A DNA stretch of 64,000 nucleotides from positions 3,338 to 67,337 of the forward strand of contig JAGQKV010000008.1 of NCBI GenBank assembly GCA_020429915.1. The letters are read 5' to 3'. The notes below the pieces were generated by a model. It worked only from the letters and a program-made list of their open reading frames with translations, did not search any database and was not told the origin of the DNA. Shown here in pieces: positions 15,352 through 42,646 of the stretch (positions are counted from its first letter, which is position 1; the number at the start of each line of letters is the position of its first letter). This stretch comes from Candidatus Omnitrophota bacterium (GTDB lineage: Bacteria > Omnitrophota > Gorgyraeia > Zapsychrales > Zapsychraceae). The translations under genes and the position numbers were made by a program.

Positions 15352-15912
15352 ATGAGTGAACGATTAACAGCTATCAGCAAATATCTCAGCTTCGTGCTCA
15401 GGCACAAGCCGCAGGCGATCGGACTTAAACTGGACGCCAACGGTTGGGCGCGGGTCGATGAATTGATCACCTGCGCGGCGCGGGACGGCCGGAAACTCAC
15501 CCCGGAGCTGATCGCCGCGGTGGTGGCGACCGACCCCAAGCAGCGCTACGCGTTCAGCGAAGACGGCGCGCGTATCCGCGCCAATCAGGGCCACTCGGTC
15601 GACGTGGATTTGCAGCTGAAAGAGGAGGAACCGCCCGCGGTCCTGTTTCACGGGACCGCGCGGGCTTCGCTTGAGGCGATTTTAGTGCACGGCTTAAAAC
15701 CGATGCAACGGCATCACGTTCATCTCTCCGTGGACGAATCCACGGCATACGCGGTCGGCCGGCGTTACGGAGAGCCGGTAATCCTGCGCGTCGACTGCGC
15801 GGCCATGCGCGCGGACGGTCACGTCTTTTTCAGGTCCGAAAACGGTGTTTGGCTGACGGATACGGTCCCGGCAAAATTTCTCGCGATTGCCGGGGACAGA
15901 ACGGGAAGCTAG
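15352..15912 (+). CDS. kptA: RNA 2'-phosphotransferase (Tpt1/KptA family)
   Basis: Collinear similarity to E. coli KptA: SKYLSFVLRHKP, HGT, RHHVHLS, ENGVWLT. Confidence 0.8.
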   Translation: MSERLTAISKYLSFVLRHKPQAIGLKLDANGWARVDELITCAARDGRKLTPELIAAVVATDPKQRYAFSEDGARIRANQGHSVDVDLQLKEEEPPAVLFHGTARASLEAILVHGLKPMQRHHVHLSVDESTAYAVGRRYGEPVILRVDCAAMRADGHVFFRSENGVWLTDTVPAKFLAIAGDRTGS

Positions 15913-15929
15913 CAGGAGAGCGGCGGCTT

Positions 15930-16349
15930 ATGATCATCCGGGTCCTTATCCGTGAGGCGTGGTGGAAAGTACTGCTGTTAACGTTGTTGTACGCGTGGTT
16001 AAGCGTGGTCAATCACTGGTTCGGCACGTCTTTTTTTATCGCGATCGCCTACGGGATCATCCTCGGACGGATCGTGCCGCGCGCCTTATATCAGGCACAG
16101 GTCCCGATCTCCCGAAGGTATCAGCTCACGGCAGTCGTGACGACGCTGATCGGCCTCTATTTTCATTTCGCCTTTTTCTGTTCCTTCAAGTATCTGGAAA
16201 CGCTGCTGTTTCCCTGGCAGATCTGGGTGGCGCTGCAGGCCATTGCGCAACAGGGAGCCGCCGCGAGCGGTTACTACACGCAGTGGCTCATCGAGTCCGC
16301 CGCGGCCGTAATCAGCACGGCTGTCACGGTCCAGCTGATAGATCACTGA
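15930..16349 (+). CDS. hypothetical membrane protein
   Basis: Start at MIIRVLI with AGGAGAG RBS. Three or four transmembrane helices. Confidence 0.45.
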   Translation: MIIRVLIREAWWKVLLLTLLYAWLSVVNHWFGTSFFIAIAYGIILGRIVPRALYQAQVPISRRYQLTAVVTTLIGLYFHFAFFCSFKYLETLLFPWQIWVALQAIAQQGAAASGYYTQWLIESAAAVISTAVTVQLIDH

Positions 16350-16381
16350 ACCGCTGTTCGTTCGGGGAGGCCGGTCGCGGT

Positions 16382-16410
16382 TTGCAATTCTCTGCCCGGA
16401 ACCCTATAAT
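16382..16410 (+). promoter_or_regulatory. sigma70-type promoter: TTGCAA (16382-16387), 17-nt spacer, TATAAT (16405-16410)
   Basis: Near-consensus hexamers with optimal spacing, read directly. The -10 overlaps the first ATG (16409). The second in-frame ATG (16418) sits at the expected transcription start, which would give a leaderless mRNA. Confidence 0.5.
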
Positions 16411-16999
16411 GACAATCATGCGATACAGCTCACAAAGGAATCCGTTGCGACTGCGAACCGCGCTCATCTTCATCACCGGCCTCTGTCTGCTCTGCCTCGG
16501 CGGCTGCGGGGGAAAGAAAGAAAAGGGACCGCCAACGGACGGCTGGAAGATCATCCTGAAGGACGGTAAACAATCCTTGGAATACCGGCTGTCGGTCATG
16601 AATGTCTATGTCACCGATCCGGTGGCGGCCGCAGAGTATCCGGAGGCGTTCGAGATCTTCGGGGAAAACGTGCATCTGCTGGGGACCTTTCCGCTGGAGA
16701 CCCGCATCGGATTCGATTCCAATATCGACGTCCTGTTAAATACACCGATCACCATCAAGATGCAGATGATGAACGCGCGGGACTACAAGATCGAGAACTC
16801 CTTTTCTTCAATCATCTTAGACGGCGCCGACCGGAAATACGTCAAAGGAGAAATAATTTTTCGCCAGCGCACCGGCAAGACCACCGGCCGCGACGGCGAT
16901 ATCACCCTCACCGGTGAAATCACCCTCGAAATCGGCACCGGCGCCGACCGCAAGACCCTCACCGGCACCATTAGTGTGCATCCTGTCGCCTGGGGATAG
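16409..16999 (+). CDS. hypothetical lipoprotein (alternative leaderless start at 16418)
   Basis: Signal peptide plus lipobox (LCLLCLGGCGG). Confidence 0.5.
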   Translation: MTIMRYSSQRNPLRLRTALIFITGLCLLCLGGCGGKKEKGPPTDGWKIILKDGKQSLEYRLSVMNVYVTDPVAAAEYPEAFEIFGENVHLLGTFPLETRIGFDSNIDVLLNTPITIKMQMMNARDYKIENSFSSIILDGADRKYVKGEIIFRQRTGKTTGRDGDITLTGEITLEIGTGADRKTLTGTISVHPVAWG

Positions 17000-17008
17000 G
17001 CGGCTCCC

Positions 17009-20000
17009 TTAATCTACCATTATAATCGCACCGCGCAATGGACCGCCCGTACGGACCTGCGGATAACGGTAGTAATGGATGGCATCACCGTCGTCCAGGA
17101 CCATCCGGAAGCAATAGTTGTTTCCGCTCGCGGCCCCGTTGTTTTGAACGACCCAGTCATATTCGAGACGTTGACCGACCGTAGCCGACAACGGGTTGGC
17201 GGCGGAATCGTTGGCTTCTTCATAAGAGGCGCGAATGTCGCTGAGTGAAAGCAGGTTTGCCGACAGAGTCGCGCCGTCCGCCGGGGATGCGTTGTCGAAG
17301 CCGCGCCAGATGCCGCTGCCGCCGGTTCCGTCCACATCTGTCCAGCTACCGTCGGCCTCGGCCGCGCAATTCGTACTCGCGACGTACTGCAGGGTAAAGG
17401 CCTGTTCGCTAGCGCTGAGATCGGTGCCGCCGACTTGGACCGCCATGCGCAGCCGGATGACCTGACCGTTGGTTACCTGTTCGGCCCGGGTATTCTCGGC
17501 GGCCAGCGCCGTCGTCGGCTGGACGGCATCGATATTCTCGTATATCCGGTAGTGGGTTTGATCGAAGATGGAGGCGTCGGTCAGGATGGTCCCGGAGCTG
17601 GCGTCGAAGGCGACAAGTGCGACACTTTCTGTGGTATGGGTACGGTCGGATCCGGTCCCGTCTTCGTCTGCCGATCCGTAATGCGTGGAGGCGGTGGTGG
17701 CCCGGCCGGTCGAGGTGACCGCGTAGCTGCCGTTCCCGCCGTCTTCACCCGACTGGCTGATGACCGTAACCTCCGGCGCGGAGGAGAAGGCGCTGGTGAA
17801 GGTGGTCTCGTACCCGTTGCCCGCGTCACAACAGGAGACCGTGTCCACCCCCAGCTGGGTATCAAACTCAACCGCATTGTTTGTTCCGTGTACGCCTTCC
17901 TCAAAAGCGATGTAGTCGATGTCCTCGGCGCCGTGGGGTGAGCCGGAGCAGGCATTCCAGCCCACATTGAGAGTCATGCGCATGGTCGAAGTCGTCGGGT
18001 CATTGTCCAGTGTCGTCCCGTCATCGATATGGGTTGAGGTCCACGCCGTATCGGAATTGGAGGCGACGGTCGTCAGCACGATCGGGGTCCCGCTGAAGGC
18101 CGGGTTGAAGGTCACCGTGGCGGGCGTACCCGAAATGGTATCCGTGTTGCAGAATGTCCCATCGGTGTTTTCCGATCCGGCTTGGACCAACAAGGTCCCT
18201 GAGCCGCTGTCCATGCCGAAGGTCCCGGACTCCATGACGATATAGTCGACGGTGGTGGTCGCGGTCAATGATCCGGCGCTGTTGTCGACTTTGACGTCGA
18301 ATTGTGTGGAAGTTTTGTTACGCACGCGCACTTCGCGCTGGGCATCAGTGTCCGGATCATAACGCGCGGATCCGACCACAACAGGGTTGGTGTAGGTGTT
18401 TGTGAAATTGACGGTTTCCCATGTGTTGTTAGTGAGGCTGACCGTGCCGAATTCCCCAATGCGATTGGAATTCACCGCATCAATCGTCAGTTCGGGATAG
18501 ACGCTGTAGGAATCCAGGGCGCTGCCCGCGGCGGCGTCGTACAGCCGGAAGCAGTAGCTTTGTCCGGTGACCGCGGTCTCGCCGGGAGTTATCGAGTATT
18601 CGAGTTCCACCATCTCGTCGGTATCCAATGGACCGCGGCTGCTGCTGGTATCGGCACTATCACGGCCTTCGCCGGTAATACGGCTGTAACTGCCCGGCAG
18701 CGTCAGGAAGCCGGTCGAGCTGCTCTCACCGTCCGGGCTGATATGGACCGAATCTACCATCTGGAATTCATCGGTCGTATCGTCGACTCCGGTCCAGGAA
18801 CTGACCGCGGCACAGGTGGTTACCTTGGGGGCGAATTCGAGTTCATACTGACGACCGGCATCCTCTGCGGCGGCGCCCAGATTGGCCACGGCGATACGGA
18901 TCCGCCGCGTAACGCCGCGGTCAATGCTGGCGATCGCGTTGGAGTCTTCCACGCCCAAGGTGCCGCTGAGCGTGTTGAGGTCCGAGGCATCGTCGCGCCA
19001 AATAAAATGCAGCTGCGTGGAGTCCTCCGCGGCCATCACCAGTGAAGGATAGGTGGCGTATCCGTCAAGTGGGGTGCCGGCGAGGGCGTCACGGACCCGG
19101 AAGCAGTAGCGGGTGGCGTCCGCCGCGGTGGCCGTCGGAGTTATGCTGAATTCGAGTTCCGTCACCGTCGATGCGTTGAGCGGTCCGAGGCTGGCGGTCG
19201 TGTCGGTGACGTCGCGGCCTTCACCGTTGGTAAAGCTGTACGCTTCGGTATTCGACAGCAGGGTGCCGGTTACTGTTTGACCGTCGGTGAGGTTGGTCGA
19301 TGCGGACATCGCAAATTCGTCGGCGCTGTCGGCCACACCAACATAGTTGCCGGACGGGATGGCGCCGCAGGTGGTGCTCGCCTCGGCCCACTGGATTTCG
19401 TACTGGCGCGCAGCGGACTCAACGGTGTCGCCGGCATTGGCCACGCTCAGGCGTACCCGATACGTGGAGGCGACCTGCGCGTCGGAGAGTTCCGTGCTTT
19501 CGGCGGCCAGAAATCCGCCTGAGGAATTCAGCGCCGTGGTATCGTCCCTCCAGCGGTACCGCAGTTGCCGCGTAAAGGGGGTTCCTCCGGGGATGAACAG
19601 AGTATCAAGGTTCACCCCTTGTAACGCCATCCGGTCGGCCTGATAAGTGGAATCACTGTTGGTGGCCTCGTTAATTTGGGTGAGTTGGATATACTGGGTA
19701 CTCGCGAGGCCCGGCATCAGGATTCCGGCAGAGGCGCCGCTGGTCAAGGTCGTCCCCCCGCTGGTCTCTACACCCCGGTTGTATTGACCGAAACCGCCGT
19801 AGAGATACAAACCGGATCCGTCGGTCCCCGCGGCGGAGCTGTCGCTGTTCTGCCATTCCCCGAAAAGGGTCTCCCGGGCATCGACCCCCGAACGCGACGC
19901 GTACAAGGCGCCGAAGAAAAGGTAGTCACCGTCCGCCTCAATGTTGATCCGTTCGGTGTTAGTGCCGTCGTGATCGAAAGCGGCGGTGTCCTCTTCATCC

Positions 20001-21043
20001 GCGGTATCCCAGGTGATGTTGGTGCGCGAGTTGCTGAGGTCTTGACCGCCGCCGGTCTCGGTGAGGCGGACGTAATGGGCGTCGTCCGGAAGCTTGGCAA
20101 TGGTTATCCCGGTCTCGGCGGCGACCACTTGCAGTCCCGTCGGTGTATTCACGCCTTCCCTGCGTATTTGGATCACCAGATCCTGACTGGTGGTGGTTGT
20201 CTCGATAATACCGGCATAGGTCGCCATCGAATCTTCGGTGTTATTCGTCCCGCGCTGATAGGCGGTGATCCGCGTGCCCGGGATCTCGGTACCGTCCAGG
20301 GTTAGGCGCGTTTCCAGGTTGCCGCGGTTGGTCGTGTCGTTTTGATTGAAGCTGACGTTGGACGTCACCAGATAGTGGCCTTGCGGCCCAAGGGTGATCG
20401 TCGCACCGCTGCGGCTAAATGTGCCGGCATCAATCTCATCGTCGGTGGCCAGGGTCAGATCGATGAACGTGCTGGAGGTGAAAGTCTGATTCGACGACGG
20501 GCGGGTCCTGATATAGTCCCAGCCGTCATCCAGCTTCAGGACGGAAATGCCAGACTTGTCCGCGCGGCGCCGCACCGTGGCGGAATTGCTGTCGGTGCGT
20601 TGCATCTGAATACGGATATCGTCTCCGGCGGAAACATCGATAATTGCCGCGCCCTGATTGTATCCTTCGTCGTTGTTGCCCGCTCGCCGAATATATCCCT
20701 GGCCGCGGCCATAGGGAAGATTGGAGCCCGTCGTTTGATTGCGGATCCAGCTTTGCATCTCCGAGCGATTGGTCCCTCCGGAGGTTTCGGTCGGGACGGA
20801 GTAGAGGACGAGATAGTGACCGCCCTCTTCGAGATCGATGTCCAGACTGCCCGTTATGGAGAAGCTTCCCGATACAGTCACTTCATCATCCCAGGTCAAG
20901 TTGGTGGCCGTCGTGGCGATGGTGTCCAGGCCGGTGATGTCCTTATAAATGGCATAATCACCGGGCGCACCCCAGGTTCGGCCGCTCATAGCCAGCACGG
21001 CCAGCAGCAGGGACAGTCCAAGTTGTCGAATGCGTTTAAGCAT
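17009..21043 (-). CDS. very large (1344 aa) secreted Thr/Ser/Gly/Asp-rich surface protein with internal domain repeats (adhesin or S-layer-like)
   Basis: Signal peptide MLKRIRQLGLSLLLAVLAMSGRTWG. Two tandem 175-aa repeats (LRYRWRDD...YPSLVMA and LHFIWRDD...YPELTID). Three copies of a GHYLV/GDYLF-containing module near the N-terminus. Confidence 0.6.
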   Translation of the reverse strand: MLKRIRQLGLSLLLAVLAMSGRTWGAPGDYAIYKDITGLDTIATTATNLTWDDEVTVSGSFSITGSLDIDLEEGGHYLVLYSVPTETSGGTNRSEMQSWIRNQTTGSNLPYGRGQGYIRRAGNNDEGYNQGAAIIDVSAGDDIRIQMQRTDSNSATVRRRADKSGISVLKLDDGWDYIRTRPSSNQTFTSSTFIDLTLATDDEIDAGTFSRSGATITLGPQGHYLVTSNVSFNQNDTTNRGNLETRLTLDGTEIPGTRITAYQRGTNNTEDSMATYAGIIETTTTSQDLVIQIRREGVNTPTGLQVVAAETGITIAKLPDDAHYVRLTETGGGQDLSNSRTNITWDTADEEDTAAFDHDGTNTERINIEADGDYLFFGALYASRSGVDARETLFGEWQNSDSSAAGTDGSGLYLYGGFGQYNRGVETSGGTTLTSGASAGILMPGLASTQYIQLTQINEATNSDSTYQADRMALQGVNLDTLFIPGGTPFTRQLRYRWRDDTTALNSSGGFLAAESTELSDAQVASTYRVRLSVANAGDTVESAARQYEIQWAEASTTCGAIPSGNYVGVADSADEFAMSASTNLTDGQTVTGTLLSNTEAYSFTNGEGRDVTDTTASLGPLNASTVTELEFSITPTATAADATRYCFRVRDALAGTPLDGYATYPSLVMAAEDSTQLHFIWRDDASDLNTLSGTLGVEDSNAIASIDRGVTRRIRIAVANLGAAAEDAGRQYELEFAPKVTTCAAVSSWTGVDDTTDEFQMVDSVHISPDGESSSTGFLTLPGSYSRITGEGRDSADTSSSRGPLDTDEMVELEYSITPGETAVTGQSYCFRLYDAAAGSALDSYSVYPELTIDAVNSNRIGEFGTVSLTNNTWETVNFTNTYTNPVVVGSARYDPDTDAQREVRVRNKTSTQFDVKVDNSAGSLTATTTVDYIVMESGTFGMDSGSGTLLVQAGSENTDGTFCNTDTISGTPATVTFNPAFSGTPIVLTTVASNSDTAWTSTHIDDGTTLDNDPTTSTMRMTLNVGWNACSGSPHGAEDIDYIAFEEGVHGTNNAVEFDTQLGVDTVSCCDAGNGYETTFTSAFSSAPEVTVISQSGEDGGNGSYAVTSTGRATTASTHYGSADEDGTGSDRTHTTESVALVAFDASSGTILTDASIFDQTHYRIYENIDAVQPTTALAAENTRAEQVTNGQVIRLRMAVQVGGTDLSASEQAFTLQYVASTNCAAEADGSWTDVDGTGGSGIWRGFDNASPADGATLSANLLSLSDIRASYEEANDSAANPLSATVGQRLEYDWVVQNNGAASGNNYCFRMVLDDGDAIHYYRYPQVRTGGPLRGAIIMVD
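18488..19564 (-). repeat. intragenic tandem duplication encoding two 175-aa domain repeats
   Basis: Protein-level repeat: aa 494-671 versus aa 678-852 of the 1344-aa product. Confidence 0.5.
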
Positions 21044-21151
21044 AATTTTTGTTCGATAGAGACCCTATCGGCAAATTTCTCCCGCACACAGAATGCACCC
21101 GAGGCACTCCTCCCGCGGGGAAATTAAAAAAACCGTGATGACTGCCGCAGC

Positions 21152-21337
21152 TTATTGCCGGGAGTCGGTCACGGTGTGGCCACTTTTTAACAGGACTTTG
21201 ATCTGGTCAACCAGCTCCGGCGGGAGCTTGCTGAGGTTGGCCAGGGTCCGTTTGCGTACTTTGCCGTCCACGCGATAGGACTCGCGGATCAGCACGCACG
21301 GTGGCGAATTCCGGTTTTTAACATACTCTACGTACAT
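21152..21337 (-). pseudogene. 61-codon N-terminal remnant of an IS1634/ISAs1-like transposase (truncated)
   Basis: MYVEYVKNRNSPPCVLIRESYRVDGKVRKRTLANLSKL resembles the conserved N-terminus of IS1634-family transposases. The reading frame ends after 61 codons. Recognition is from memory only. Confidence 0.4.
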
Positions 21338-21849
21338 GGCTACATTCTATACGTAAAATATTGTCTAATAAACATAAACTGGTACTAATACATGGCTACA
21401 TAAAAAGACACTGATTGAGCCGGGAGGAGGGAACTGAGATGAGACGCGGTGCGTCTATTATAGTTTAAGATGTTGCTAGTTAATAACTTGAGTAGATTTA
21501 GAAAGTCTTGCGGCCGTCCGCTGCGGGGCGGCCTGATCCCATGGGCGCTTGGAATAAACATGGGCCGGCCGGTCGATGGGGACATGTGGGGGAAATAAGG
21601 ATAAAAAAGAAGCGGCCGACGGTCCCAGGGGGATAAGGGTGGCTGATTCGCGATTCCTCCCCGGCCTCATCGGGGGGAGTGGACGCGCGGAGGTCGCGCG
21701 AACCATGACCGTCGGCCGCTTGGTACGGGACTTATATAACCCATCGGGCCTCCCCGATTATTCATTTCGGGAAAGCCCGGTGGATTTCCCTCTTGTGCGG
21801 AGGGGGGAACGGGAGGCAGCCGTTGGTACGGACGGGCCGCCGTCCCGGA

Positions 21850-22302
21850 TTATCGACAGTTATCGTGATATTCCCAGTGTCCGCCAAGCTCTTCTTTCAC
21901 GCGGATGTAATGACTTTCAACAATAACAGTACCGTATTTGGGGTGGGTTTCCTCATGTTCGGGCACGTGTTTTTTTATCCACCGGAATTCCGGCACCCAC
22001 ACACGTTGCTGATCGCAATGATAGTGTTTTACCACCTGTTGGTAGGGACGATGTCGGGTCGCCGGCCGGTAAGAGACCGGTTCCGGCTGGTAGTAGCCGG
22101 AGGTCGTACGGTTGGTATATTTATGGCCGGTGACGGCCTCGCCGAATCCACCGACCACGTCGATTTGTCCGCCGCTCACCAAGCGCAGGCCTTCAATAAT
22201 AGTTAATGCCTTGCCTGCCTTGTCCCATTCGCTGGCATGGCTGACAGAGGCGGTAGATCCGAGGAAAGTTGCGGTGATCAGGATGGTTATTAGTCTTTTC
22301 AT
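21850..22302 (-). CDS. hypothetical secreted protein
   Basis: Start at MKRLITIL with AAGGGGGA RBS. Signal peptide. His/Tyr-rich C-terminus. Confidence 0.5.
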   Translation of the reverse strand: MKRLITILITATFLGSTASVSHASEWDKAGKALTIIEGLRLVSGGQIDVVGGFGEAVTGHKYTNRTTSGYYQPEPVSYRPATRHRPYQQVVKHYHCDQQRVWVPEFRWIKKHVPEHEETHPKYGTVIVESHYIRVKEELGGHWEYHDNCR

Positions 22303-22507
22303 GAGTTCCCCCTTTCGTAGGAATGTGCGTTGTGCTGCTGTTCGACCTCTTAGACACGGCACGTCCGGGAAAAGTTCCCTGGACACCGGTAAAAATTTCG
22401 TGCAGCGAAATAAAACTAAAGTGTTGCGGTATGGACGGTTAAATCAGTTTGAACTGATACCGATTCTTTGCTAGACTGATGAAACCCTGCGGCCGGCAAA
22501 CATATCC

Positions 22508-23974
22508 TTGAGACCTATGTCACTTCCTCACGATATTATCAGAATATCCGATACCCTGTGGGAAATCCCCAAGTCCCATGATCCGGAAATGCGCGTTCCC
22601 GCCCGGATCTTCGCCACCGAAAAACTTCTGCAAAAAATGGACGAAGCCGTCTTTCAGCAGGCCGTTAACGTCGCCAAGCTGCCCGGCATTCTCAAATACT
22701 CTTACTGTATGCCGGACGGGCATTGGGGGTACGGTTTTCCGATCGGCGGGGTGGCGGCCATGGACCCGGAGGAGGGTGTGATTTCTCCGGGCGGCATCGG
22801 TTTTGACATCAATTGTGGGATGCGTTTGTGCCTGACCAACCTGACCTTTGATGAGGTCAAACCACACCTGAAGCGGCTGGTGGAGCGCCTGTTCGACCGT
22901 GTCCCGTGCGGGGTCGGCCGAAAGGGATTTGTCGAGATATCGAAAAAGGAATTTCCGCGGGTGGCGCGGGAGGGGTCGCGCTGGTGTTTGAACAAGGGAT
23001 ACGGAACTCAACACGATTTGGAGATGACCGAAGAGGGCGGCTGCATTGAGGACGCCGATCCGTCCCGCGTATCCCAGAAGGCGATCGAGCGCGGCTTTCA
23101 TCAGATCGGTACGCTCGGTTCGGGGAATCACTATCTCGAAATCCAGGTGGCAAAGCCGGAAAACATTTTTGATGAACAAACAGCGCGGGCCTACGGTATC
23201 ACCATCCCGAACCAGGTCGTGATTATGTTCCACTGCGGCAGCCGCGGGTTCGGGCATCAGATTGCCACCGATTATCTGGAAATTTTCCTGAAGGTCATGC
23301 AGAGCAAATACAAACTCAAGGTCAATGACAAGGAGCTAGCCTGCGCGCCGTTCCGTTCGCCGGAAGGGCAGGCCTATTTCGCGGCGATGAAGTGCGCGGT
23401 CAACATGGCCTTTGCCAATCGCCAGGTGATCCTCCACCGGGTGCGCGAGGTTTTTTCGGAGGTCTTTTGTAAGTCGCCGCAGGATTTGGGTCTCAGCCAG
23501 GTTTACGACGTGGCCCACAATATTGCCAAACTGGAAAAGCATATCGTGGACGGAAAGATGCGCACCGTTCTCGTCCACCGCAAAGGCTCCACGCGCGCCT
23601 TTGGGCCGGGTATGGACGGTATTCCGGATGCCTACCGCAAGGTCGGTCAGCCGGTGATCATCGGTGGGAGTATGGAGACGGGATCGTACTTGCTGGCCGG
23701 TGTAAAGGGCAACGAGGATGCCTTCTGCACCACCGCGCACGGCAGCGGCCGCACCATGAGCCGCCGGCAGGCGCGTAAACAGTTTCGGGGAGATGATCTG
23801 CAGCGGGCGATGGAGGAACGCGGCGTTTACGTTCGCTCGGCTTCCTTTGCCGGACTCGCCGAAGAGGCCGGACTGGCGTACAAGAATATCGACGACGTCA
23901 CTGAGGCCACCGAACTCTCCGGGATCAGCAAACGGATCGTGCGGCTGGTACCGGTCGGGAATATCAAGGGATAG
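22508..23974 (+). CDS. rtcB: RNA-splicing ligase RtcB (3'-phosphate/5'-hydroxyl RNA ligase)
   Basis: Hallmark motifs CMPDGHWGYGFPIGGVAA, GGIGFDINCG, GSGNHYLEIQ and HGSGR. 488 aa. Confidence 0.9.
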   Translation: MRPMSLPHDIIRISDTLWEIPKSHDPEMRVPARIFATEKLLQKMDEAVFQQAVNVAKLPGILKYSYCMPDGHWGYGFPIGGVAAMDPEEGVISPGGIGFDINCGMRLCLTNLTFDEVKPHLKRLVERLFDRVPCGVGRKGFVEISKKEFPRVAREGSRWCLNKGYGTQHDLEMTEEGGCIEDADPSRVSQKAIERGFHQIGTLGSGNHYLEIQVAKPENIFDEQTARAYGITIPNQVVIMFHCGSRGFGHQIATDYLEIFLKVMQSKYKLKVNDKELACAPFRSPEGQAYFAAMKCAVNMAFANRQVILHRVREVFSEVFCKSPQDLGLSQVYDVAHNIAKLEKHIVDGKMRTVLVHRKGSTRAFGPGMDGIPDAYRKVGQPVIIGGSMETGSYLLAGVKGNEDAFCTTAHGSGRTMSRRQARKQFRGDDLQRAMEERGVYVRSASFAGLAEEAGLAYKNIDDVTEATELSGISKRIVRLVPVGNIKG

Positions 23975-23979
23975 ACGCG

Positions 23980-24405
23980 ATGCCGTACCGGTTTCTGGAT
24001 GATGTCGCCACCGCAGATATTGCGTTTGAGGCCACAGGCAGGGACCTGAATGAAATCTTCCGGGCCGCCGCCGCCGCGACGCTGGCCGTTATGCTGGAAG
24101 ATATTCCCGGGCTCGAGGACCGGGTCGAGCGGACGGTCGTATTGGATGCCGACGATCCGCAGGAATTGCTCTTCCGGTTTCTCCAGGAGGTGATCTTTTA
24201 CAAAGATGCCGAATGCCTCCTGTTGCGTGTGCGGGAGCTCAACGTGACCGGCGACGGCCGGCAACTGCGGGCGGTCATGAGCGGTGAGGCTGTGGATATC
24301 GAACGCCATTGTTTGAACGTAGACATAAAAGCGGTCACGTATCACCTTTTTACTTTTAAAGAAACCGCCGAGGGCTATGTCACGACCGTTGTCCTCGACA
24401 TATAA
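23980..24405 (+). CDS. archease (RtcB activator)
   Basis: Collinear with archease (DDVATADIAFEA ... DIKAVTYH ... VVLDI). Immediately downstream of rtcB. Confidence 0.8.
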   Translation: MPYRFLDDVATADIAFEATGRDLNEIFRAAAAATLAVMLEDIPGLEDRVERTVVLDADDPQELLFRFLQEVIFYKDAECLLLRVRELNVTGDGRQLRAVMSGEAVDIERHCLNVDIKAVTYHLFTFKETAEGYVTTVVLDI

Positions 24406-24414
24406 GGTAGCGAA

Positions 24415-25041
24415 ATGAAATCGGCCAGGGCCAATTCGGAAGAGACGTTGCGGGGATGGATGCAGATTTCCGCAATCAGTCTGCTGATGTTCTCGATCAG
24501 TTTCGGACTGATCAAGATGATCGCCCAGAGTCCGTGGACCCAGGCGCGCTTTGAACAGGACCGGCTCATGCAAGAAAATACGGGGCTGCTCGATAAGGTG
24601 ATCGAAATCCGTCAGGCCGAGGGTCGTCTGGACCCCGACTCGGCGCGGCGGATGACAACGCTGCGGGAGGACTTAGAAAAGGTGAAGGATCGGTTGGCAA
24701 CCGCCCGGCGGGAGGAACGGCCGGTGGAAGAACGGGAGGCCTTGGCCGGTGAGAGGCAGACAATAAAAAAGGAATTGCGCGCGGTCAAGTTGGATATTGT
24801 TAGGAGTACGGCCGCACTTGACGATTCCGCGCACTATGTCACGCTCGCCCGCAAGTGTCTACGCAATATGGATCGGTTGGCGGAACTTGACGCCATGTCC
24901 GGGTTTTTCTACTCAACGGGAGGACAGATAATCTTAATACTCACCGGCTTTTTTTTATCGGTGGTGATGTGGCTGGGCATAGGCGGCATAGTCTTTCTCT
25001 CCATACTCGGCGGCATCAACACATTGTTGAGTTCGACGTGA
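24415..25041 (+). CDS. hypothetical membrane-anchored coiled-coil protein
   Basis: N-terminal TM, charged coiled-coil middle, C-terminal double TM. Confidence 0.45.
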   Translation: MKSARANSEETLRGWMQISAISLLMFSISFGLIKMIAQSPWTQARFEQDRLMQENTGLLDKVIEIRQAEGRLDPDSARRMTTLREDLEKVKDRLATARREERPVEEREALAGERQTIKKELRAVKLDIVRSTAALDDSAHYVTLARKCLRNMDRLAELDAMSGFFYSTGGQIILILTGFFLSVVMWLGIGGIVFLSILGGINTLLSST

Positions 25042-25086: not shown

Positions 25087-26430
25087 ATGGTGTTAGGAAA
25101 GAAGGCGAAACAACTTCGCATGACACTGGTCGTCCCGGATACTCTAAGGGACAAGGTCGTGGTCTCCAAGGCGTATCAATCTTGTGATTCCGAAGGCAAG
25201 GTGACCGGATTCGGGGTCGACCTGACCTTCACGGAACTGCGTTTGGCCAAGGCCATCAAATCCGGAGATTTTGCGCTGCTGCAAGGGAAGATCGAAAATA
25301 CCCTGCGGGCATGGGAGAAGCGTTACGTCCGGCATTTGGACAAAGTGGCCCGGGAGCAGCGGTCCGCGTCCGTAGAGGAATTGACCCGCGAAGCCCAGCA
25401 GGCCGCCGTCGATCTGGAAGGTCTGCTGATCAATTCGTTGACCGAAGACGATGCCGTTGACTGGGAGGCCATAAAACGCCAGGATTCTTTCACCGTTGAT
25501 CCGCAGAACATCACAGGCCAGCAACCTCCGGCCTTTATCCGTTTTGCCGAAAACGGCAAACCGGCCTTGTTTACGCGGTTGTATGAGCCGAAGCAGCCGC
25601 AGTTGGCAAAGGTCAAGAAGGAGTTCAGTATTTTCAAACGGATTTTTAACGGCAAACTGATCCGCGCCGAGTTCGAACGTCGCCACAAGGATTGGGAGGT
25701 AAAGATCGAGGAAGCCCGCCGGGACAACCGGGAACGGGAAGAGGCGTATCACATCTATTTGCGTGCCTGGGAAGAACTCAAGACGCAGTTCGAGAAGGAA
25801 AAAGCCGACAGCAATGCTACGCTCGAAGACATTCGTTTGCGTTATCAAAACAAGAAGCCGCGCGCGATCGAAGAGTATTGTGATCTGGTGCTCAATCATT
25901 CCGCCTATCCAGACTTTTTTCCCCACAGCTGGCATCTGGAGTACCGGTCGGCAGAGGCGTTGCTGGTGGTCGACTACGATTTGCCGGTTTTAGACGATCT
26001 TCCATCGGTGGCGGCTTACGCCTATGTGAAGTCCGAAGACCAGGTTATTGTCCGGCGGCATCCGGCCGAGTACCTGCGCAAGTTATATGACAGCGTGTGC
26101 TATCAGGTGTGCCTGCGCACGATTCACGAGTTGTTCGAGTCGGATGTCATCGGTGCCGTCGATGCCGTGGCGTTCAACGGAATGGTGCGCGTATTCAAGT
26201 CCGATCAGAACATAAAAGAAATAAAGGTCATTATGTCGGTGCGCGCCGCCAGGGATCGTTTTCATGATTTCGATCTGACTATGGTCGATCCGCGGGCGAC
26301 ATTCAAGCTGTTGAAAGGCGTCTCCACCGATCATTTATACGAAAATGTTCCTGTCAGACCGGTCGTCACATTGGCCCGCGGGGACCGGCGGGAAATCAGC
26401 GAAAATCAACTCGAGCAGGACAGCGCCTAG
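25087..26430 (+). CDS. hypothetical 447-aa protein: charged coiled-coil N-half with a possible PD-(D/E)xK nuclease-like C-half
   Basis: C-terminal segment LLVVDYDLPVLDD...AYVKSED weakly resembles a restriction-endonuclease-like core. No confident family assignment. Confidence 0.4.
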   Translation: MVLGKKAKQLRMTLVVPDTLRDKVVVSKAYQSCDSEGKVTGFGVDLTFTELRLAKAIKSGDFALLQGKIENTLRAWEKRYVRHLDKVAREQRSASVEELTREAQQAAVDLEGLLINSLTEDDAVDWEAIKRQDSFTVDPQNITGQQPPAFIRFAENGKPALFTRLYEPKQPQLAKVKKEFSIFKRIFNGKLIRAEFERRHKDWEVKIEEARRDNREREEAYHIYLRAWEELKTQFEKEKADSNATLEDIRLRYQNKKPRAIEEYCDLVLNHSAYPDFFPHSWHLEYRSAEALLVVDYDLPVLDDLPSVAAYAYVKSEDQVIVRRHPAEYLRKLYDSVCYQVCLRTIHELFESDVIGAVDAVAFNGMVRVFKSDQNIKEIKVIMSVRAARDRFHDFDLTMVDPRATFKLLKGVSTDHLYENVPVRPVVTLARGDRREISENQLEQDSA

Positions 26431-26448: not shown

Positions 26449-27537
26449 ATGAGCAAAAGACGCATCGGCATTCTCACCGGTGGAGGGGATTGCGCCGGAC
26501 TCAACGCGGTTATCCGCGCCGTGACCAAGAAAGCCATCCTTGAGCAGGGCTACGAGGTATTCGGATATGAAGACGGATATGAAGGGGTCATTCACAATCG
26601 GTACCGTCCGCTGGCCTTTGACGATGTCTCCGGCATTTTGACTCTGGGCGGAACCATCCTCGGGACATCCAACAAGGCCAATCCTTTCAAGTATGCCGTC
26701 AAGGCCGACGGGAAAGTAACCTTTGAAGACCGCTCCCGGGACGCCGTGCACAACATACAAGACCTCGGACTGGAGTGTCTGGTGTGTATCGGCGGCGACG
26801 GTACGTTGACGATCGCCAACAAACTGTGCGAGATGGGTGTCCCCGTGGTCGGCGTTCCCAAGACCATCGACAACGACATCCGCGGTACGGATATCACCTT
26901 CGGATTTGATTCGGCGGTGGAGATCGTCACCGAAGGGATCGACCGCATTCACAGCACGGCTCAGTCCCATCATCGGGTCATGATCATTGAGGTGATGGGC
27001 CGCACCGCCGGGTGGATCGCCCTGCATTCCGGTGTGGCCGGAGGCGGAGACATTATCTTGCTGCCGGAGATACCGTATGACATCAACAAGGTCGCTGAAC
27101 GCGTTCTCAAACGCGGGAAGGAAGGCAAACGTTTCAGCATCATCGTCGTGGCCGAGGGGGCCAAACCGATCGGCGGAGAGGTCACGGTGAAGAAGATCGT
27201 TGAGGACAGTCATGAAAAGGTCCGGTTGGGCGGGATCAGTTTCCGGTTGGTGTCCGATGTCGAGGCGCTGACCGGCCTCGAGGCGCGGGCCGTGGTGATG
27301 GGACATCTGCAGCGCGGCGGCACGCCGTCGTCGTTCGACCGGGTGTTGGCCACGCGATTGGGAACGCGGGTCGTCGACATGATCGAGGCCGGGCAGTTCG
27401 GACACATGTGCGGCGTGCGCTGTGATGGACTGGTCAACGTCCCGTTGAGCGAAGTCGCCCGAGGGCCGCGACTGGTTGACCCGGCCGATCCGCTGATTCG
27501 ATCCGCCCGCTCGATCGGCGTTATTTTCGGAGATTGA
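26449..27537 (+). CDS. pfkA: 6-phosphofructokinase (ATP- or PPi-dependent)
   Basis: RIGILTGGGDCAGLNAVIR and GGDGT motifs. PFK architecture throughout. Confidence 0.85.
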   Translation: MSKRRIGILTGGGDCAGLNAVIRAVTKKAILEQGYEVFGYEDGYEGVIHNRYRPLAFDDVSGILTLGGTILGTSNKANPFKYAVKADGKVTFEDRSRDAVHNIQDLGLECLVCIGGDGTLTIANKLCEMGVPVVGVPKTIDNDIRGTDITFGFDSAVEIVTEGIDRIHSTAQSHHRVMIIEVMGRTAGWIALHSGVAGGGDIILLPEIPYDINKVAERVLKRGKEGKRFSIIVVAEGAKPIGGEVTVKKIVEDSHEKVRLGGISFRLVSDVEALTGLEARAVVMGHLQRGGTPSSFDRVLATRLGTRVVDMIEAGQFGHMCGVRCDGLVNVPLSEVARGPRLVDPADPLIRSARSIGVIFGD

Positions 27538-27613: not shown

Positions 27614-28195
27614 ATGGAAGAACTCGAAGAACTTTCTGAGAAGACCCCGGTCAAGCATGTCCGGGACGGATACAAAGGCTGGATTTGCGGAAGAACACGC
27701 ATGAAGGAATGTTTTACCGGCAACACCGACTGCGATTTTCAATACCGCGTGCAAATTCCCGGAGAGGACCGCCGACGTATCGCGCCGCGGGAGGATTTGG
27801 AGATCATACGCGAAGCCGGAGATTTTCCGGAGGTTATTTACGAACATGACCAGCACGATGAAAACGAAAGCTGGCTGCACGCGCTTGGTTACCAGATCAC
27901 GGGCATGGATTTTAACGAACGGATCACCATTTTGATGAATATCGCGATCCCGATGCGGGGCGAGCGATCCGTCGTGTACAAGCTGACCGGTTTTATGAAG
28001 GCGCGCGCCACCAGTCAGGATCGCACCCAACAGTATTATCACGCGTTGTCGGAGTGGAACCGGGACATCAATTTCATTATGAAGAAATTCGACGACAAAT
28101 GGATCAAGACACACGTAAAGTCGATCCGCAAGAAACTGGAACAGAACGGGTACCATTGGATCGAAGATGAGGAAGTCAAAGACCAATCCGCCTAA
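27614..28195 (+). CDS. hypothetical protein
   Basis: 193-aa ORF. No recognisable motifs. Confidence 0.45.
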   Translation: MEELEELSEKTPVKHVRDGYKGWICGRTRMKECFTGNTDCDFQYRVQIPGEDRRRIAPREDLEIIREAGDFPEVIYEHDQHDENESWLHALGYQITGMDFNERITILMNIAIPMRGERSVVYKLTGFMKARATSQDRTQQYYHALSEWNRDINFIMKKFDDKWIKTHVKSIRKKLEQNGYHWIEDEEVKDQSA

Positions 28196-41311: not shown

Positions 41312-42646
41312 ATGAAGAAAGTCATCCTCGCATCCGGCTCGGCCCAGCGTAAGAATCTCATGCAAGTGACGGGCATTCCCTTTGAAGTGCGGCCCAGTGC
41401 CGCTCCTGAAGCGGATGCCATCACCACGACCTGCGATGATTTGGTTAAACACAACGCCCTGGTTAAAGCGCGGGATATCGCGGCCGGGATCGACAGCGGC
41501 GTGGTGATCGGTGCTGACACGGTGGTGTATCTCGGAGACAACCGTCTGGTGCTCAAACCGAAGGACTTGCAGGAGGCCAAGGAGAAACTGCAGGAGCTGA
41601 TGGCGTCGCCGCAGTGGGTGTACACCGGTGTGGCGGTTATCGACGTCGAGACCGGCACGGAACAGTGTGAGGTCGAGAAGACCAAGGTCTACATGGACCC
41701 GCTCACCGATGCGGAGATCGACCGGTATCATCAGCGTGTCCCGCCGCTCGACAAGGCCGGCGGGTTTGATATCGAAGGTTTGGGCAGTCTGTTCATTCAT
41801 CGTATCGAAGGCTGCTATACCAATGTGATCGGACTGCCGATGGCCCGGCTGCGGGTGATGCTCAAAAACGCCGGTATCACACTGATCGGACTGGTGATGA
41901 TGTTGTCGGTCGGCGGCTGCACCACCGAATACAATGTGGCTACCCGCAAGCAGGAATACTATCTGCACTCCACCGATAAGGAAGTCAATATCGGACAGCG
42001 GGTGGCGGCTCAGATCGAAAAAAACTTCGATATGGTCGAGGGTGTCGAAGAAAACCGGCGCGTCCAGGAGATCCTCGACAAATTGGTCGCCGTGTGCGAC
42101 CGGAAGGATATCGTCTATTCCATCCGTATCATCGACCGCGAAGATATTAATGCCACCGCGCTGCCCGGCGGGTTTATCTTCCTATTTAAGGGGGTTTTGG
42201 ATTACGCTACCTCCGACGATCAGGTCGCGGGCGTGATCGCTCACGAAATCGGTCATATCACGGCAAAGCATGGTTTGAAGAGGATGCAGGCTTCTTACGG
42301 CGCCTTGTTGCTGCAGATCGCCGCGTTGGAAGCCAACGGCAATGTGGCCGGCGGGGTCAATCTCGCCACGACATCGCTGTTCATGGAATATTCGCAGGAC
42401 CATGAATTGGAGGCCGACGAACTTGGCATCAAATATATGAAAAAGGCCGGTTACGATCCCCAGGAAATGATCGGTTTTCTGGAGACCATGGGAGAAGAAA
42501 CGGACAAGGAAATCCGGCGCTTTTCCTACTGGCGGACTCACCCCCACATTCCCGAACGCATCGCCAATATCAGCCGGTTGATCAAGGGACAAATGGATTT
42601 CCGGGATTACATCAGACTTATAGACAGGGTCCATGACGACTACTAG
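41312..42646 (+). CDS. maf: in-frame Maf-like NTP pyrophosphatase domain, TM or lipoprotein-signal segment, and M48 (HExxH) metallopeptidase domain. Either a fusion or two genes with an internal start near 41860
   Basis: N-terminus MKKVILASGSAQRKNLM...(Maf). Internal MLKNAGITLIGLVMMLSVGGC signal or lipobox-like segment. Then HEIGH, as in BepA/YfgC-type M48 peptidases. No stop codon separates the parts. Confidence 0.55.
   Translation: MKKVILASGSAQRKNLMQVTGIPFEVRPSAAPEADAITTTCDDLVKHNALVKARDIAAGIDSGVVIGADTVVYLGDNRLVLKPKDLQEAKEKLQELMASPQWVYTGVAVIDVETGTEQCEVEKTKVYMDPLTDAEIDRYHQRVPPLDKAGGFDIEGLGSLFIHRIEGCYTNVIGLPMARLRVMLKNAGITLIGLVMMLSVGGCTTEYNVATRKQEYYLHSTDKEVNIGQRVAAQIEKNFDMVEGVEENRRVQEILDKLVAVCDRKDIVYSIRIIDREDINATALPGGFIFLFKGVLDYATSDDQVAGVIAHEIGHITAKHGLKRMQASYGALLLQIAALEANGNVAGGVNLATTSLFMEYSQDHELEADELGIKYMKKAGYDPQEMIGFLETMGEETDKEIRRFSYWRTHPHIPERIANISRLIKGQMDFRDYIRLIDRVHDDY

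What the first reader, a model, noticed from the sequence alone, without database searches (positions are those of the whole stretch)
15352..24405. RNA-repair toolkit: Tpt1/KptA near an RtcB-archease operon
KptA removes the 2'-phosphate from RNA splice junctions. RtcB seals 2',3'-cyclic-phosphate/5'-OH breaks and archease is its activator. Having all three within 9 kb, with rtcB-archease translationally coupled, suggests a dedicated RNA damage-response or tRNA-repair capacity. A 447-aa unknown protein (25087-26430) follows immediately and may belong to the same module.
Basis: established knowledge. Interest (0 to 1): 0.5.

Follow-up and report, generated by a model that had tools for sequence, protein, structure and literature searches.

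The report
Ordinary rtcB-archease operon; KptA unlinked
The window carries a textbook RNA-ligase operon (rtcB plus its activator archease) and, 6.6 kb away, a separate KptA gene. Comparison with relatives shows that KptA and the 447-aa protein are neighbours by accident of gene order, so this is not a dedicated RNA-repair module.

Summary
The three genes exist as described, in a Candidatus Omnitrophota MAG. KptA/Tpt1 is 15352-15912. RtcB is 22517-23974 (ATG start; the listed ORF starts at TTG 22508). Archease is 23980-24405. All three are full-length with catalytic motifs intact.

- **rtcB-archease:** a conserved pair. Archease lies downstream of rtcB in 71 of 80 genomes from many phyla. This operon was described in 2014.
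- **KptA:** not part of the pair. Five genes and gene remnants separate it from rtcB, three of them on the opposite strand, including a transposase fragment. KptA was absent within the up-to-10-kb flanks held for all 80 RtcB loci and from the 4.8 kb upstream of rtcB in the closest relative. RtcB ligation leaves no 2'-phosphate for KptA to remove.
- **Regulation:** no RtcR-type activator and no sigma-54 promoter. A conserved sigma-70-like element lies upstream of rtcB.
- **447-aa protein:** it matches the N-terminal ~435 residues of a 587-aa Mrr-type "restriction system protein" family but lacks the Mrr nuclease domain. It is under purifying selection. It follows rtcB-archease only in one narrow clade and in none of 80 other loci.

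Verdict: ordinary, already known.

The parts
15352..15912 (+). kptA/tpt1, RNA 2'-phosphotransferase (186 aa). Solitary gene, not part of the rtcB unit.
   Evidence: PF01885 at E 1e-52. NCBIfam equivalog NF002014 at 261 bits, above the 239 cut-off. 192 bits to PDB 7kw8 in a gap-free alignment that keeps R17-H18, R65 and R120 opposite identical residues of the solved enzyme. Absent near rtcB in 80 other genomes.
15930..16349 (+). 139-aa predicted membrane protein downstream of kptA (context only).
   Evidence: Called as a gene on the identical ENA contig. Hydrophobic sequence. No Pfam or NCBIfam match.
16445..16999 (+). 184-aa predicted lipoprotein (context only). The first-pass 346-aa ORF 15959-16999 is an over-extension of this gene.
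   Evidence: ENA gene call. Signal/lipobox-like LLCLGGCGG. 62% identical homologue in L170, where it sits next to the sec150 homologue without the 1344-aa gene or KptA.
17009..21043 (-). 1344-aa secreted protein of unknown function on the opposite strand. It interrupts any kptA-rtcB co-transcription.
   Evidence: ORF and ENA gene call. N-terminal signal-like sequence. Only a sub-threshold H_lectin match. Absent from this position in relative L170.
21152..21337 (-). 61-aa N-terminal remnant of an IS1634-family transposase.
   Evidence: tblastn gives 59-62% identity to the N-termini of annotated IS1634-family transposases on plasmids.
21850..22302 (-). 150-aa secreted protein, transcribed divergently from rtcB. 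Conserved neighbour in close relatives.
   Evidence: ENA gene call. Signal peptide MKRLITILITATFLGSTASVSHA. 73% and 66% identical homologues in the same position in L170 and L176.
22449..22477 (+). Candidate sigma-70-type promoter of rtcB: TTGAAC, 17-nt spacer, TGc-TAGACT (extended -10). Inferred, not shown.
   Evidence: It lies in the ~95 nt upstream of rtcB that stay largely identical between the window and L170, although synonymous sites in the region's genes are saturated in comparisons with related contigs. It matches 8 of 12 consensus positions, so the consensus scan did not call it.
22517..23974 (+). rtcB, 3'-phosphate/5'-OH RNA ligase (485 aa), archaeal/eukaryal archease-dependent type.
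   Evidence: PF01139 at 558 bits, full length. 561 bits to P. horikoshii RtcB (1uc2/4dwq), with DINCG, GSGNH, H-GSRG, DVAHN and HG-GR motifs aligned and conserved. 100% identical to a protein NCBI names 'RtcB family protein'.
23980..24405 (+). archease, RtcB activator (141 aa).
   Evidence: PF01951 at 117 bits. Aligns to P. horikoshii archease 4n2p with TAD (D13) and K117 conserved, and ends in ...LDI like the D141-I142 metal site. Lies downstream of rtcB in 71 of 80 genomes.
24415..25041 (+). 208-aa membrane/coiled-coil protein of a tiny clade-restricted family.
   Evidence: Hydrophobic segments at about residues 15-38 and 167-207. Three hits among 5.8 billion proteins and 14 representative clusters among 1.84 billion. 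33-37% identical genes in the same position in relatives. A distant member (L174/L175) has no rtcB, archease or 447-aa homologue detected in the DNA held (6 kb upstream; 1.7 kb or less downstream).
25087..26430 (+). 447-aa nuclease-less relative of Mrr-type 'restriction system proteins'.
   Evidence: PADLOC mREase_IV at E 1e-27. 47% identical to residues 7-436 of the 587-aa P0011, whose Mrr_cat domain (451-567) has no counterpart here. pfk starts 18 nt after its stop. dN/dS 0.05-0.08 against relatives. AF2 model with pLDDT 89.9 and no convincing PDB match.
26449..27537 (+). pfk, phosphofructokinase. The next gene in the same co-directional, tightly spaced array.
   Evidence: PF00365 at E 4e-104. 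84-90% identical and syntenic in relatives.

Best explanation
The region is an ordinary chromosomal stretch of a Candidatus Omnitrophota genome. It holds a canonical two-gene rtcB-archease cassette.

**Mechanism, from established knowledge of the family.** RtcB, with Mn2+ and GTP, seals RNA ends that carry a 2',3'-cyclic or 3'-phosphate to 5'-OH ends through a His-GMP intermediate. Archease, through its acidic metal-binding tip, promotes RtcB guanylylation and multiple turnover.

**Expression (inferred).** The pair is probably transcribed from a conserved sigma-70-like promoter about 40 nt upstream of rtcB. It heads a long co-directional gene string: 208-aa gene, 447-aa gene, pfk and onwards. 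It does not use the RtcR/sigma-54 stress circuit known from E. coli.

**KptA.** It is an intact but independent Tpt1-family NAD+-dependent 2'-phosphotransferase gene 6.6 kb upstream. Its nearness to rtcB is a clade-specific accident of gene order.

**The two downstream genes.** Both the 208-aa membrane/coiled-coil protein and the 447-aa protein are restricted to this position in a narrow clade. The 447-aa protein is the N-terminal module of an Mrr-type restriction protein family that has lost its nuclease domain but is still under purifying selection. Neither shows any detectable link to RNA repair.

**Shown:** gene identities, motif conservation, gene order, and the conservation statistics. 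**Inferred:** enzymatic activities, the promoter, and co-transcription.
For: - Family assignments and intact motifs.
- rtcB-archease linkage: archease lies downstream of rtcB in 71 of 80 genome loci from many phyla with RtcB 67-77% identical. The operon and the activation mechanism are published (PMC3973293 and PMC4604427).
- KptA: no hit in 1.35 Mb around the 80 RtcB loci even at E 0.05. The closest relative, L170 (RtcB 91%), has OprB and an ABC-3 permease upstream of the lipoprotein homologue where the window has KptA. Opposite-strand genes and an IS1634 remnant lie between KptA and rtcB.
- Biochemistry: the RtcB pathway generates no 2'-phosphate, and bacterial Tpt1 function is an acknowledged puzzle (PMC10275265).
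- Regulation: no sigma-54 site near rtcB and no GAFTGA or enhancer-binding-protein motif in the window. The upstream ~95 nt are conserved and contain TTGAAC-17-TGcTAGACT.
- 447-aa protein. Of 80 metagenome loci with homologues, 0 have RtcB, archease, KptA, the 208-aa gene or PFK nearby, and 75 carry the Mrr_cat domain.
- Clade-level synteny sec150(-)|rtcB-archease-208(x1-2)-447-pfk.
Against: - The block rtcB-archease-208-447 is kept, with gaps of 2-66 nt, in four related lineages. In one of them, L170, the upstream flank is seen to be rearranged. A functional tie of the two downstream genes to RtcB within this clade is therefore not excluded.
- No + strand terminator-like site separates rtcB from pfk, so co-transcription of all of them is likely.
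- The promoter is inferred from conservation in two sequences only. Promoter rules in Omnitrophota are unknown.
- KptA was not checked genome-wide for co-occurrence with RtcB across Omnitrophota.
Confidence: 0.85

Rival explanations
1. KptA, RtcB, archease and perhaps the 447-aa protein form one dedicated RNA-damage or tRNA-repair module whose clustering reflects shared function.
For: All three RNA-end-processing genes are intact and lie within 9 kb. Some Tpt1 enzymes also act on terminal 2'/3'-phosphates or ADP-ribosylate 5'-phosphates, so a non-canonical link to end-healing is conceivable (PMC10275265).
Against: - KptA is separated from rtcB by five genes and gene remnants, three of them on the opposite strand, including an IS remnant.
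- KptA is found in 0 of 80 RtcB loci.
- KptA is absent from the 4.8 kb upstream of rtcB in the closest relative.
- RtcB products carry no 2'-phosphate.
- There is no shared regulator and no sigma-54 site.
Confidence: 0.04
2. rtcB-archease-208-447 is a clade-specific four-gene functional module. For example, the nuclease-less Mrr-family module could act as a nucleic-acid sensor or adaptor and the membrane coiled-coil protein as an anchor or effector, both tied to RNA ligation.
For: - Same order and tight spacing in four related lineages with RtcB 87-96% and the 447-aa protein 70-77% identical.
- The 447-aa gene is under purifying selection despite losing its nuclease (dN/dS 0.05-0.08).
- There is no terminator-like site within the string.
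Against: - Synteny in these relatives extends equally to pfk and the 193-aa gene, so it may simply reflect recent common ancestry.
- No 447-aa homologue elsewhere lies near rtcB or archease: 0 of 80 metagenome loci, nor any of the homologues looked up individually.
- Other nuclease-less derivatives sit next to an RND efflux pump or other genes.
- A distant homologue of the 208-aa protein lies next to a DinB-type polymerase with no rtcB detected in the DNA held (6 kb upstream; 1.7 kb or less downstream).
- Other Omnitrophota rtcB loci have unrelated downstream genes.
Confidence: 0.08
3. The 447-aa ORF is merely a decaying pseudogene fragment of a type IV restriction gene.
For: It lacks the Mrr_cat domain present in 75 of 80 homologues. 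One homologue, P0026, is visibly split, with the Mrr_cat part in a separate following ORF.
Against: - An intact 435-447-aa reading frame is kept in at least four related lineages at 70-77% identity.
- dN/dS is 0.05-0.08, similar to archease at 0.09.
- The AF2 model is confident, with pLDDT 89.9.
- Nuclease-less versions recur in other lineages.
Confidence: 0.03

Closest known systems
rtcB-archease 'tRNA splicing operon' of Pyrococcus horikoshii, Thermus thermophilus and diverse bacteria (Desai et al. 2014, PMC3973293; 2015, PMC4604427)
   Same: Same two genes in the same order and adjacent. The RtcB is of the archaeal/eukaryal type (561 bits to P. horikoshii RtcB). RtcB active-site motifs and the archease metal-site residues are conserved.
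   Different: Nothing essential. The host is an Omnitrophota MAG. The bacterial substrate is unknown, because bacterial tRNA introns are self-splicing.
Escherichia coli rtcBA operon with RtcR/sigma-54 control
   Same: It encodes an RtcB RNA ligase thought to repair damaged RNA.
   Different: The window has no RtcR, no sigma-54 promoter, and no rtcA among the ORFs scanned near rtcB. The E. coli-type RtcB model matches only weakly, 137 bits against a cut-off of 407. E. coli RtcB works without archease.
Bacterial Tpt1/KptA (E. coli KptA; Runella slithyformis Tpt1, PDB 7kw8)
   Same: The window protein is a single-domain 186-aa protein that scores 192 bits to 7kw8 and is above the NCBIfam equivalog cut-off.
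   Different: None detected. As in other bacteria, its physiological substrate is unknown.
Mrr-type type IV restriction enzymes / 587-aa 'restriction system protein' family (PF04471 Mrr_cat; PADLOC mREase_IV)
   Same: The 447-aa protein is 40-47% identical to the N-terminal ~435 residues of this family.
   Different: It lacks the C-terminal Mrr_cat PD-(D/E)xK nuclease domain, so it cannot be filed as a restriction enzyme.

Membership tests
RtcB RNA ligase (PF01139) | Full-length match to the family profile above the curated threshold. | tested here: met
   557.8 bits against a gathering score of 27, profile positions 1-426 of 426.
RtcB RNA ligase (PF01139) | Metal-binding and nucleotidyl-acceptor residues (P. 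horikoshii Asp95/Cys98, Asn202/His203, His234, His329, His404; residue roles recalled from the literature). | tested here: met
   Alignment to 1uc2: FDINCGMRL, GSGNHYLE, MFHCGSRG, DVAHNIAK and TAHGSGRT lie opposite the corresponding P. horikoshii motifs.
RtcB RNA ligase (PF01139) | GTP/Mn2+-dependent 3'-phosphate/5'-OH ligation activity. | not testable with these tools
   Needs a biochemical assay.
Archease (PF01951) | Profile match above threshold, and position next to rtcB. | tested here: met
   117.4 bits against 25. Starts 5 nt after the rtcB stop. The same linkage holds in 71 of 80 loci.
Archease (PF01951) | Metal-binding tip: N-terminal Asp (P. horikoshii D12), Lys117, and penultimate Asp plus the C-terminal carboxylate (PMC3973293). 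| tested here: met
   TAD (D13) and K117 align to 4n2p. The protein ends ...VVLDI.
Tpt1/KptA RNA 2'-phosphotransferase (PF01885) | Profile match above the curated equivalog cut-off. | tested here: met
   PF01885 at 179 bits. NF002014 at 261.4 bits against 239.
Tpt1/KptA RNA 2'-phosphotransferase (PF01885) | Catalytic Arg-His-Arg-Arg tetrad (Runella Tpt1 R16-H17-R64-R119; numbering recalled from the literature). | tested here: met
   The gap-free alignment to 7kw8 has an offset of 1. Window R17, H18, R65 and R120 lie opposite identical residues.
Rtc stress system of the E. coli type (rtcR-rtcBA) | Adjacent RtcR (CARF plus sigma-54 AAA+ activator) and a -24/-12 promoter upstream of rtcB. | tested here: not met
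   No TGGCAC-N5-TTGC match with 2 or fewer mismatches between 22303 and 22516, and window-wide matches are fewer than in shuffles. No GAFTGA or GESGTGKE-type motif in six frames. The neighbours are unrelated proteins.
Conserved KptA-RtcB gene neighbourhood (the 'toolkit') | Co-localisation recurring in other genomes. | tested here: not met
   0 of 80 RtcB loci have a KptA hit at E 0.05 or better. KptA is absent upstream of rtcB in L170.
Mrr-type type IV restriction endonuclease (for the 447-aa protein) | Mrr_cat (PF04471) PD-(D/E)xK nuclease domain. | tested here: not met
   No Pfam hit at E up to 1. The homologue P0011 has Mrr_cat at 451-567, beyond the aligned region 7-436. pfk starts 18 nt after the stop codon.
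Mrr-type type IV restriction endonuclease (for the 447-aa protein) | Homology of the N-terminal module to the family. | tested here: met
   PADLOC mREase_IV at E 1e-27. Between 23% and 47% identity to PF04471-bearing proteins and 23-77% across all homologues.

The most novel reading that the evidence does not exclude
In one narrow Omnitrophota clade, rtcB-archease may have recruited two extra partners. One is a rapidly evolving two-segment membrane/coiled-coil protein. The other is a nuclease-less, still-constrained N-terminal module of an Mrr-type restriction protein with no solved structural relative. Together they would form a four-gene unit that links sensing of foreign or damaged nucleic acid, or membrane localisation, to RNA ligation.
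Probability: 0.08. Interest if true: 0.55.

Novelty: already known. Interest (0 to 1): 0.13.

Why it matters
As found, it matters little. It adds one more example of the well-described rtcB-archease operon and of a bacterial Tpt1 with no known substrate, both already named by standard annotation.

The useful outcomes are negative and corrective:
- KptA and RtcB belong to alternative, not sequential, RNA-joining chemistries, and their proximity here is not conserved.
- The 'unknown 447-aa protein' is a domain-loss derivative of a restriction-protein family.

Two by-products may deserve separate attention. One is the standalone ~435-aa N-terminal module of that restriction family, which has a confident model but no structural relative. 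The other lies outside this window: a CobW/COG0523-type GTPase gene is inserted between rtcB and archease in 35 of 80 genomes, which could point to a dedicated metallochaperone for RtcB.

Tried and rejected
- **Sigma-54/RtcR regulation.** The pattern search and the six-frame motif search found nothing near rtcB.
- **RNA elements.** There are no tRNA genes and no Rfam matches at gathering scores in the window. The 21000-22600 gap gave only chance miRNA-model hits with E above 0.3.
- **Defence-system assignment.** PADLOC gave nothing for KptA, RtcB, archease or their neighbours, apart from mREase_IV for the 447-aa protein and an insignificant LmuB coiled-coil hit for the 208-aa protein.
- **Pseudogene hypothesis for the 447-aa gene.** Rejected by dN/dS.
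- **Consensus scan.** It found no qualifying sigma-70 promoter in 22303-22516 and no + strand terminator between rtcB and pfk.
- **Unknown neighbours.** Pfam and NCBIfam at E up to 1 gave nothing meaningful for the 139-, 184-, 150-, 193- and 208-aa proteins (both libraries for most) or for the 382-aa protein (Pfam; NCBIfam at E up to 0.01).
- **The 346-aa ORF 15959-16999.** Rejected as a single gene in favour of the two shorter genes called on the identical ENA contig.

Full report
**What is in the sequence**

The ORF list and the profile searches confirm the three named genes.
- KptA/Tpt1 is at 15352-15912(+). It matches PF01885 at E 1e-52 and NCBIfam equivalog NF002014 at 261 bits against a cut-off of 239.
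- RtcB is ORF 22508-23974(+). It matches PF01139 at 558 bits over the whole profile.
- Archease is at 23980-24405(+), PF01951 at 117 bits.

The most likely rtcB start is ATG 22517. That gives the 485-aa protein found in the databases and in all homologues.

The identical region occurs on public contigs of a MAG that NCBI labels Candidatus Omnitrophica bacterium; the longest such contig is 2.0 Mb. The rest of the window is ordinary chromosome with LptF/G, Maf, pfk, pta-ackA, a histidine kinase and similar genes. It has no tRNA genes and no Rfam matches.

**Integrity of the enzymes**

- RtcB scores 561 bits against P. horikoshii RtcB (1uc2/4dwq). The aligned motifs carrying the metal ligands and the GMP-accepting histidine are conserved: DINCG, GSGNH, H-GSRG, DVAHN and HG-GR. 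The residue roles are recalled from the literature.
- It is the archaeal/eukaryal type. The E. coli-type model NF007153 reaches only 137 bits against a cut-off of 407.
- Archease aligns to P. horikoshii archease with the TAD aspartate and Lys117 conserved. It ends in ...LDI, matching the D12/K117/D141/C-terminal-carboxylate site shown to be essential.
- KptA aligns without gaps to Runella Tpt1 (7kw8). R17-H18, R65 and R120 lie opposite the catalytic tetrad. The tetrad numbering is from memory.

**Anatomy between and around the genes**

KptA and rtcB are 6.6 kb apart and are not one unit. After KptA come a 139-aa membrane protein and a 184-aa lipoprotein on the + strand. The 346-aa ORF in the first-pass list is an over-extension of the lipoprotein gene.

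Three minus-strand features follow:
- a 1344-aa secreted protein (17009-21043);
- a 61-aa N-terminal remnant of an IS1634-family transposase (21152-21337), 59-62% identical to annotated transposases;
- a 150-aa secreted protein divergent from rtcB.

A 208-aa gene (24415-25041) lies in between. It has hydrophobic segments at both ends and a charged coiled-coil-like middle.

From rtcB onwards the genes are co-directional. The gaps are 5, 9, 45 and 18 nt through to pfk, then 76 and 18 nt further on. No + strand terminator-like site occurs before 27816.

**Is the clustering meaningful?**

I fetched 80 genome loci encoding RtcB proteins 67-77% identical to the window's, from Omnitrophota, Desulfobacterota, Cyanobacteria, Acidobacteriota, Nitrospirota and others, with up to 10 kb of flank each side. 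Window proteins were searched against them with tblastn.
- Archease is downstream of rtcB in 71 of 80 loci.
- KptA, the 208-aa protein, the 447-aa protein and PFK are found in none. This holds even at E 0.05 for the first three, over 1.35 Mb.

The closest relative sampled is L170, with RtcB 91% identical. It has the homologues of the lipoprotein and of the 150-aa protein directly adjacent. The 1344-aa gene and the IS remnant are therefore an insertion in the window's lineage. Upstream of its lipoprotein homologue, L170 carries OprB and an ABC-3 permease where the window has KptA.

So rtcB-archease is a real conserved pair, and KptA's nearness is not conserved. This fits the biochemistry. Tpt1 removes the junction 2'-phosphate left by Trl1-type ligases. 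The RtcB pathway leaves none, and the role of Tpt1 in bacteria is an acknowledged puzzle (PMC10275265).

**Regulation**

No sigma-54 -24/-12 match lies in the 214-nt rtcB upstream region, and window-wide matches (38) are below the shuffle mean of 61. No GAFTGA or enhancer-binding-protein Walker A motif exists in any frame.

Instead, the ~95 nt before rtcB are largely identical between the window and L170, although synonymous sites in the region's genes are saturated in comparisons with related contigs (L002, L009). This stretch contains TTGAAC (22449-22454), a 17-nt spacer and TGc-TAGACT (22469-22477). I read this as a sigma-70-type extended -10 promoter. That reading is an inference.

**The 447-aa protein**

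It has no Pfam or NCBIfam hit. It matches the PADLOC type IV restriction model at E 1e-27.

Its homologues are mostly 587-aa proteins with a C-terminal Mrr_cat domain, which sources name 'restriction system protein' or 'restriction endonuclease'. The window protein aligns at 47% identity to residues 7-436 of one of them and lacks the Mrr_cat domain at 451-567. pfk begins 18 nt after its stop codon.

In 80 metagenome loci with homologues, 75 carry Mrr_cat, and none has RtcB, archease, KptA, the 208-aa protein or PFK nearby. Individually inspected contexts show BrnT toxin, RND efflux or PIN/MazE neighbours. Nuclease-less versions recur in other contexts.

**The 208-aa protein**

It belongs to a tiny family. 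There are three hits among 5.8 billion proteins and 14 representative clusters among 1.84 billion. A distant member lies next to a DinB-type polymerase, with no rtcB or 447-aa homologue detected in the DNA held (6 kb upstream, 1.7 kb or less downstream).

**Clade-level synteny**

Four related lineages keep the order archease, 208-like (one or two copies), 447, pfk, wherever their contigs reach. They are L002/L003; L170 plus L009 from one assembly; L171; and L176. In them RtcB is 87-96% identical (the 96% from a 75-residue fragment), the 447-aa protein 70-77%, and the 208-like protein 33-37%.

In these relatives pfk is equally syntenic, and so is the 193-aa gene where the contig reaches it (L002/L003). 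Other Omnitrophota rtcB loci have unrelated downstream genes. I therefore read this as shared ancestry and not as evidence for a four-gene module. I leave about 8% for a clade-specific functional link.

**Comparison with what is known, and verdict**

The rtcB-archease operon, including bacterial examples, and the activation mechanism were published in 2014-2015 (PMC3973293, PMC4604427). The window's pair meets every sequence-level membership test. It does not belong to the E. coli RtcR/sigma-54 rtcBA type. KptA is a standard bacterial Tpt1. The 447-aa protein fails the defining nuclease-domain test of Mrr-type restriction enzymes and should be described only as a nuclease-less relative.

The finding is real as a list of genes but ordinary. 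The 'toolkit' interpretation is not supported.

**Side observation, outside the window**

In 35 of the 80 RtcB loci, a ~294-aa CobW/COG0523-type GTPase gene lies immediately downstream of rtcB, usually between rtcB and archease. No paper in the searchable library mentions both COG0523 and RtcB.

Noticed in passing
L024 11536-12420; L039 11462-12349; 33 further loci among L016-L088 (not in the window): In 35 of 80 genomes with a close RtcB, a ~294-aa CobW/COG0523-type G3E GTPase gene (GSGKTTLL P-loop, GCVCCS motif) lies immediately downstream of rtcB, usually between rtcB and archease. The genomes include cyanobacteria, Acidobacteriota, Latescibacterota and Thermodesulfobacteriota. It may be a dedicated metallochaperone for the Mn2+/GTP-dependent ligase. 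No paper in the library mentions both COG0523 and RtcB.
   Followed up: partly
window 21152-21337 (-): A 61-aa ORF is the N-terminal remnant of an IS1634-family transposase, 59-62% identical to annotated transposases. Together with the 1344-aa gene it marks an insertion relative to the closest relative L170.
   Followed up: yes
window 17009-21043 (-): A 1344-aa protein with a signal-like N-terminus has no family match except a sub-threshold H-type lectin hit at residues 876-935. It is absent from the corresponding position in L170.
   Followed up: partly
window 25087-26430; L007, L116, L119, L125: The ~435-aa N-terminal module of the 587-aa Mrr_cat 'restriction system protein' family folds confidently (pLDDT 90) into a long helical hairpin plus small alpha/beta domains, with no solved structural relative. 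It occurs as a standalone nuclease-less protein in at least three unrelated contexts, one of them next to an RND efflux pump.
   Followed up: partly
window 22425-22516: About 95 nt upstream of rtcB are largely identical to the relative L170, although synonymous sites in the region's genes are saturated in comparisons with related contigs. The stretch holds a sigma-70-like TTGAAC-17-TGcTAGACT and, in the window only, a 7-nt inverted repeat ATCAGTT/AACTGAT overlapping the -35 element.
   Followed up: partly
window 21338-21849: A ~510-nt stretch has no called gene between the IS remnant and the 150-aa gene. Its first part is AT-rich. It has no credible Rfam match. The 116-aa ORF at 21576-21926 is not called on the identical public contig.
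   Followed up: partly
window 27614-28195 (+): A 193-aa protein with no family match is 88% identical in the relative L002 with dN/dS 0.02. It is the most constrained unknown gene in the string.
   Followed up: no
window 41312-42646 (+): A single 444-aa ORF combines a Maf-like domain (residues 3-186) with a peptidase M48 domain (residues 247-422). This possible fusion was not examined further.
   Followed up: no
L172/L173 10001-15417: In Omnitrophica WOR_2 GWA2_45_18, archease lies 3.5 kb downstream of rtcB, separated by multihaem-cytochrome-like genes and a 688-aa gene. A YbaK/tRNA_edit gene precedes rtcB.
   Followed up: no
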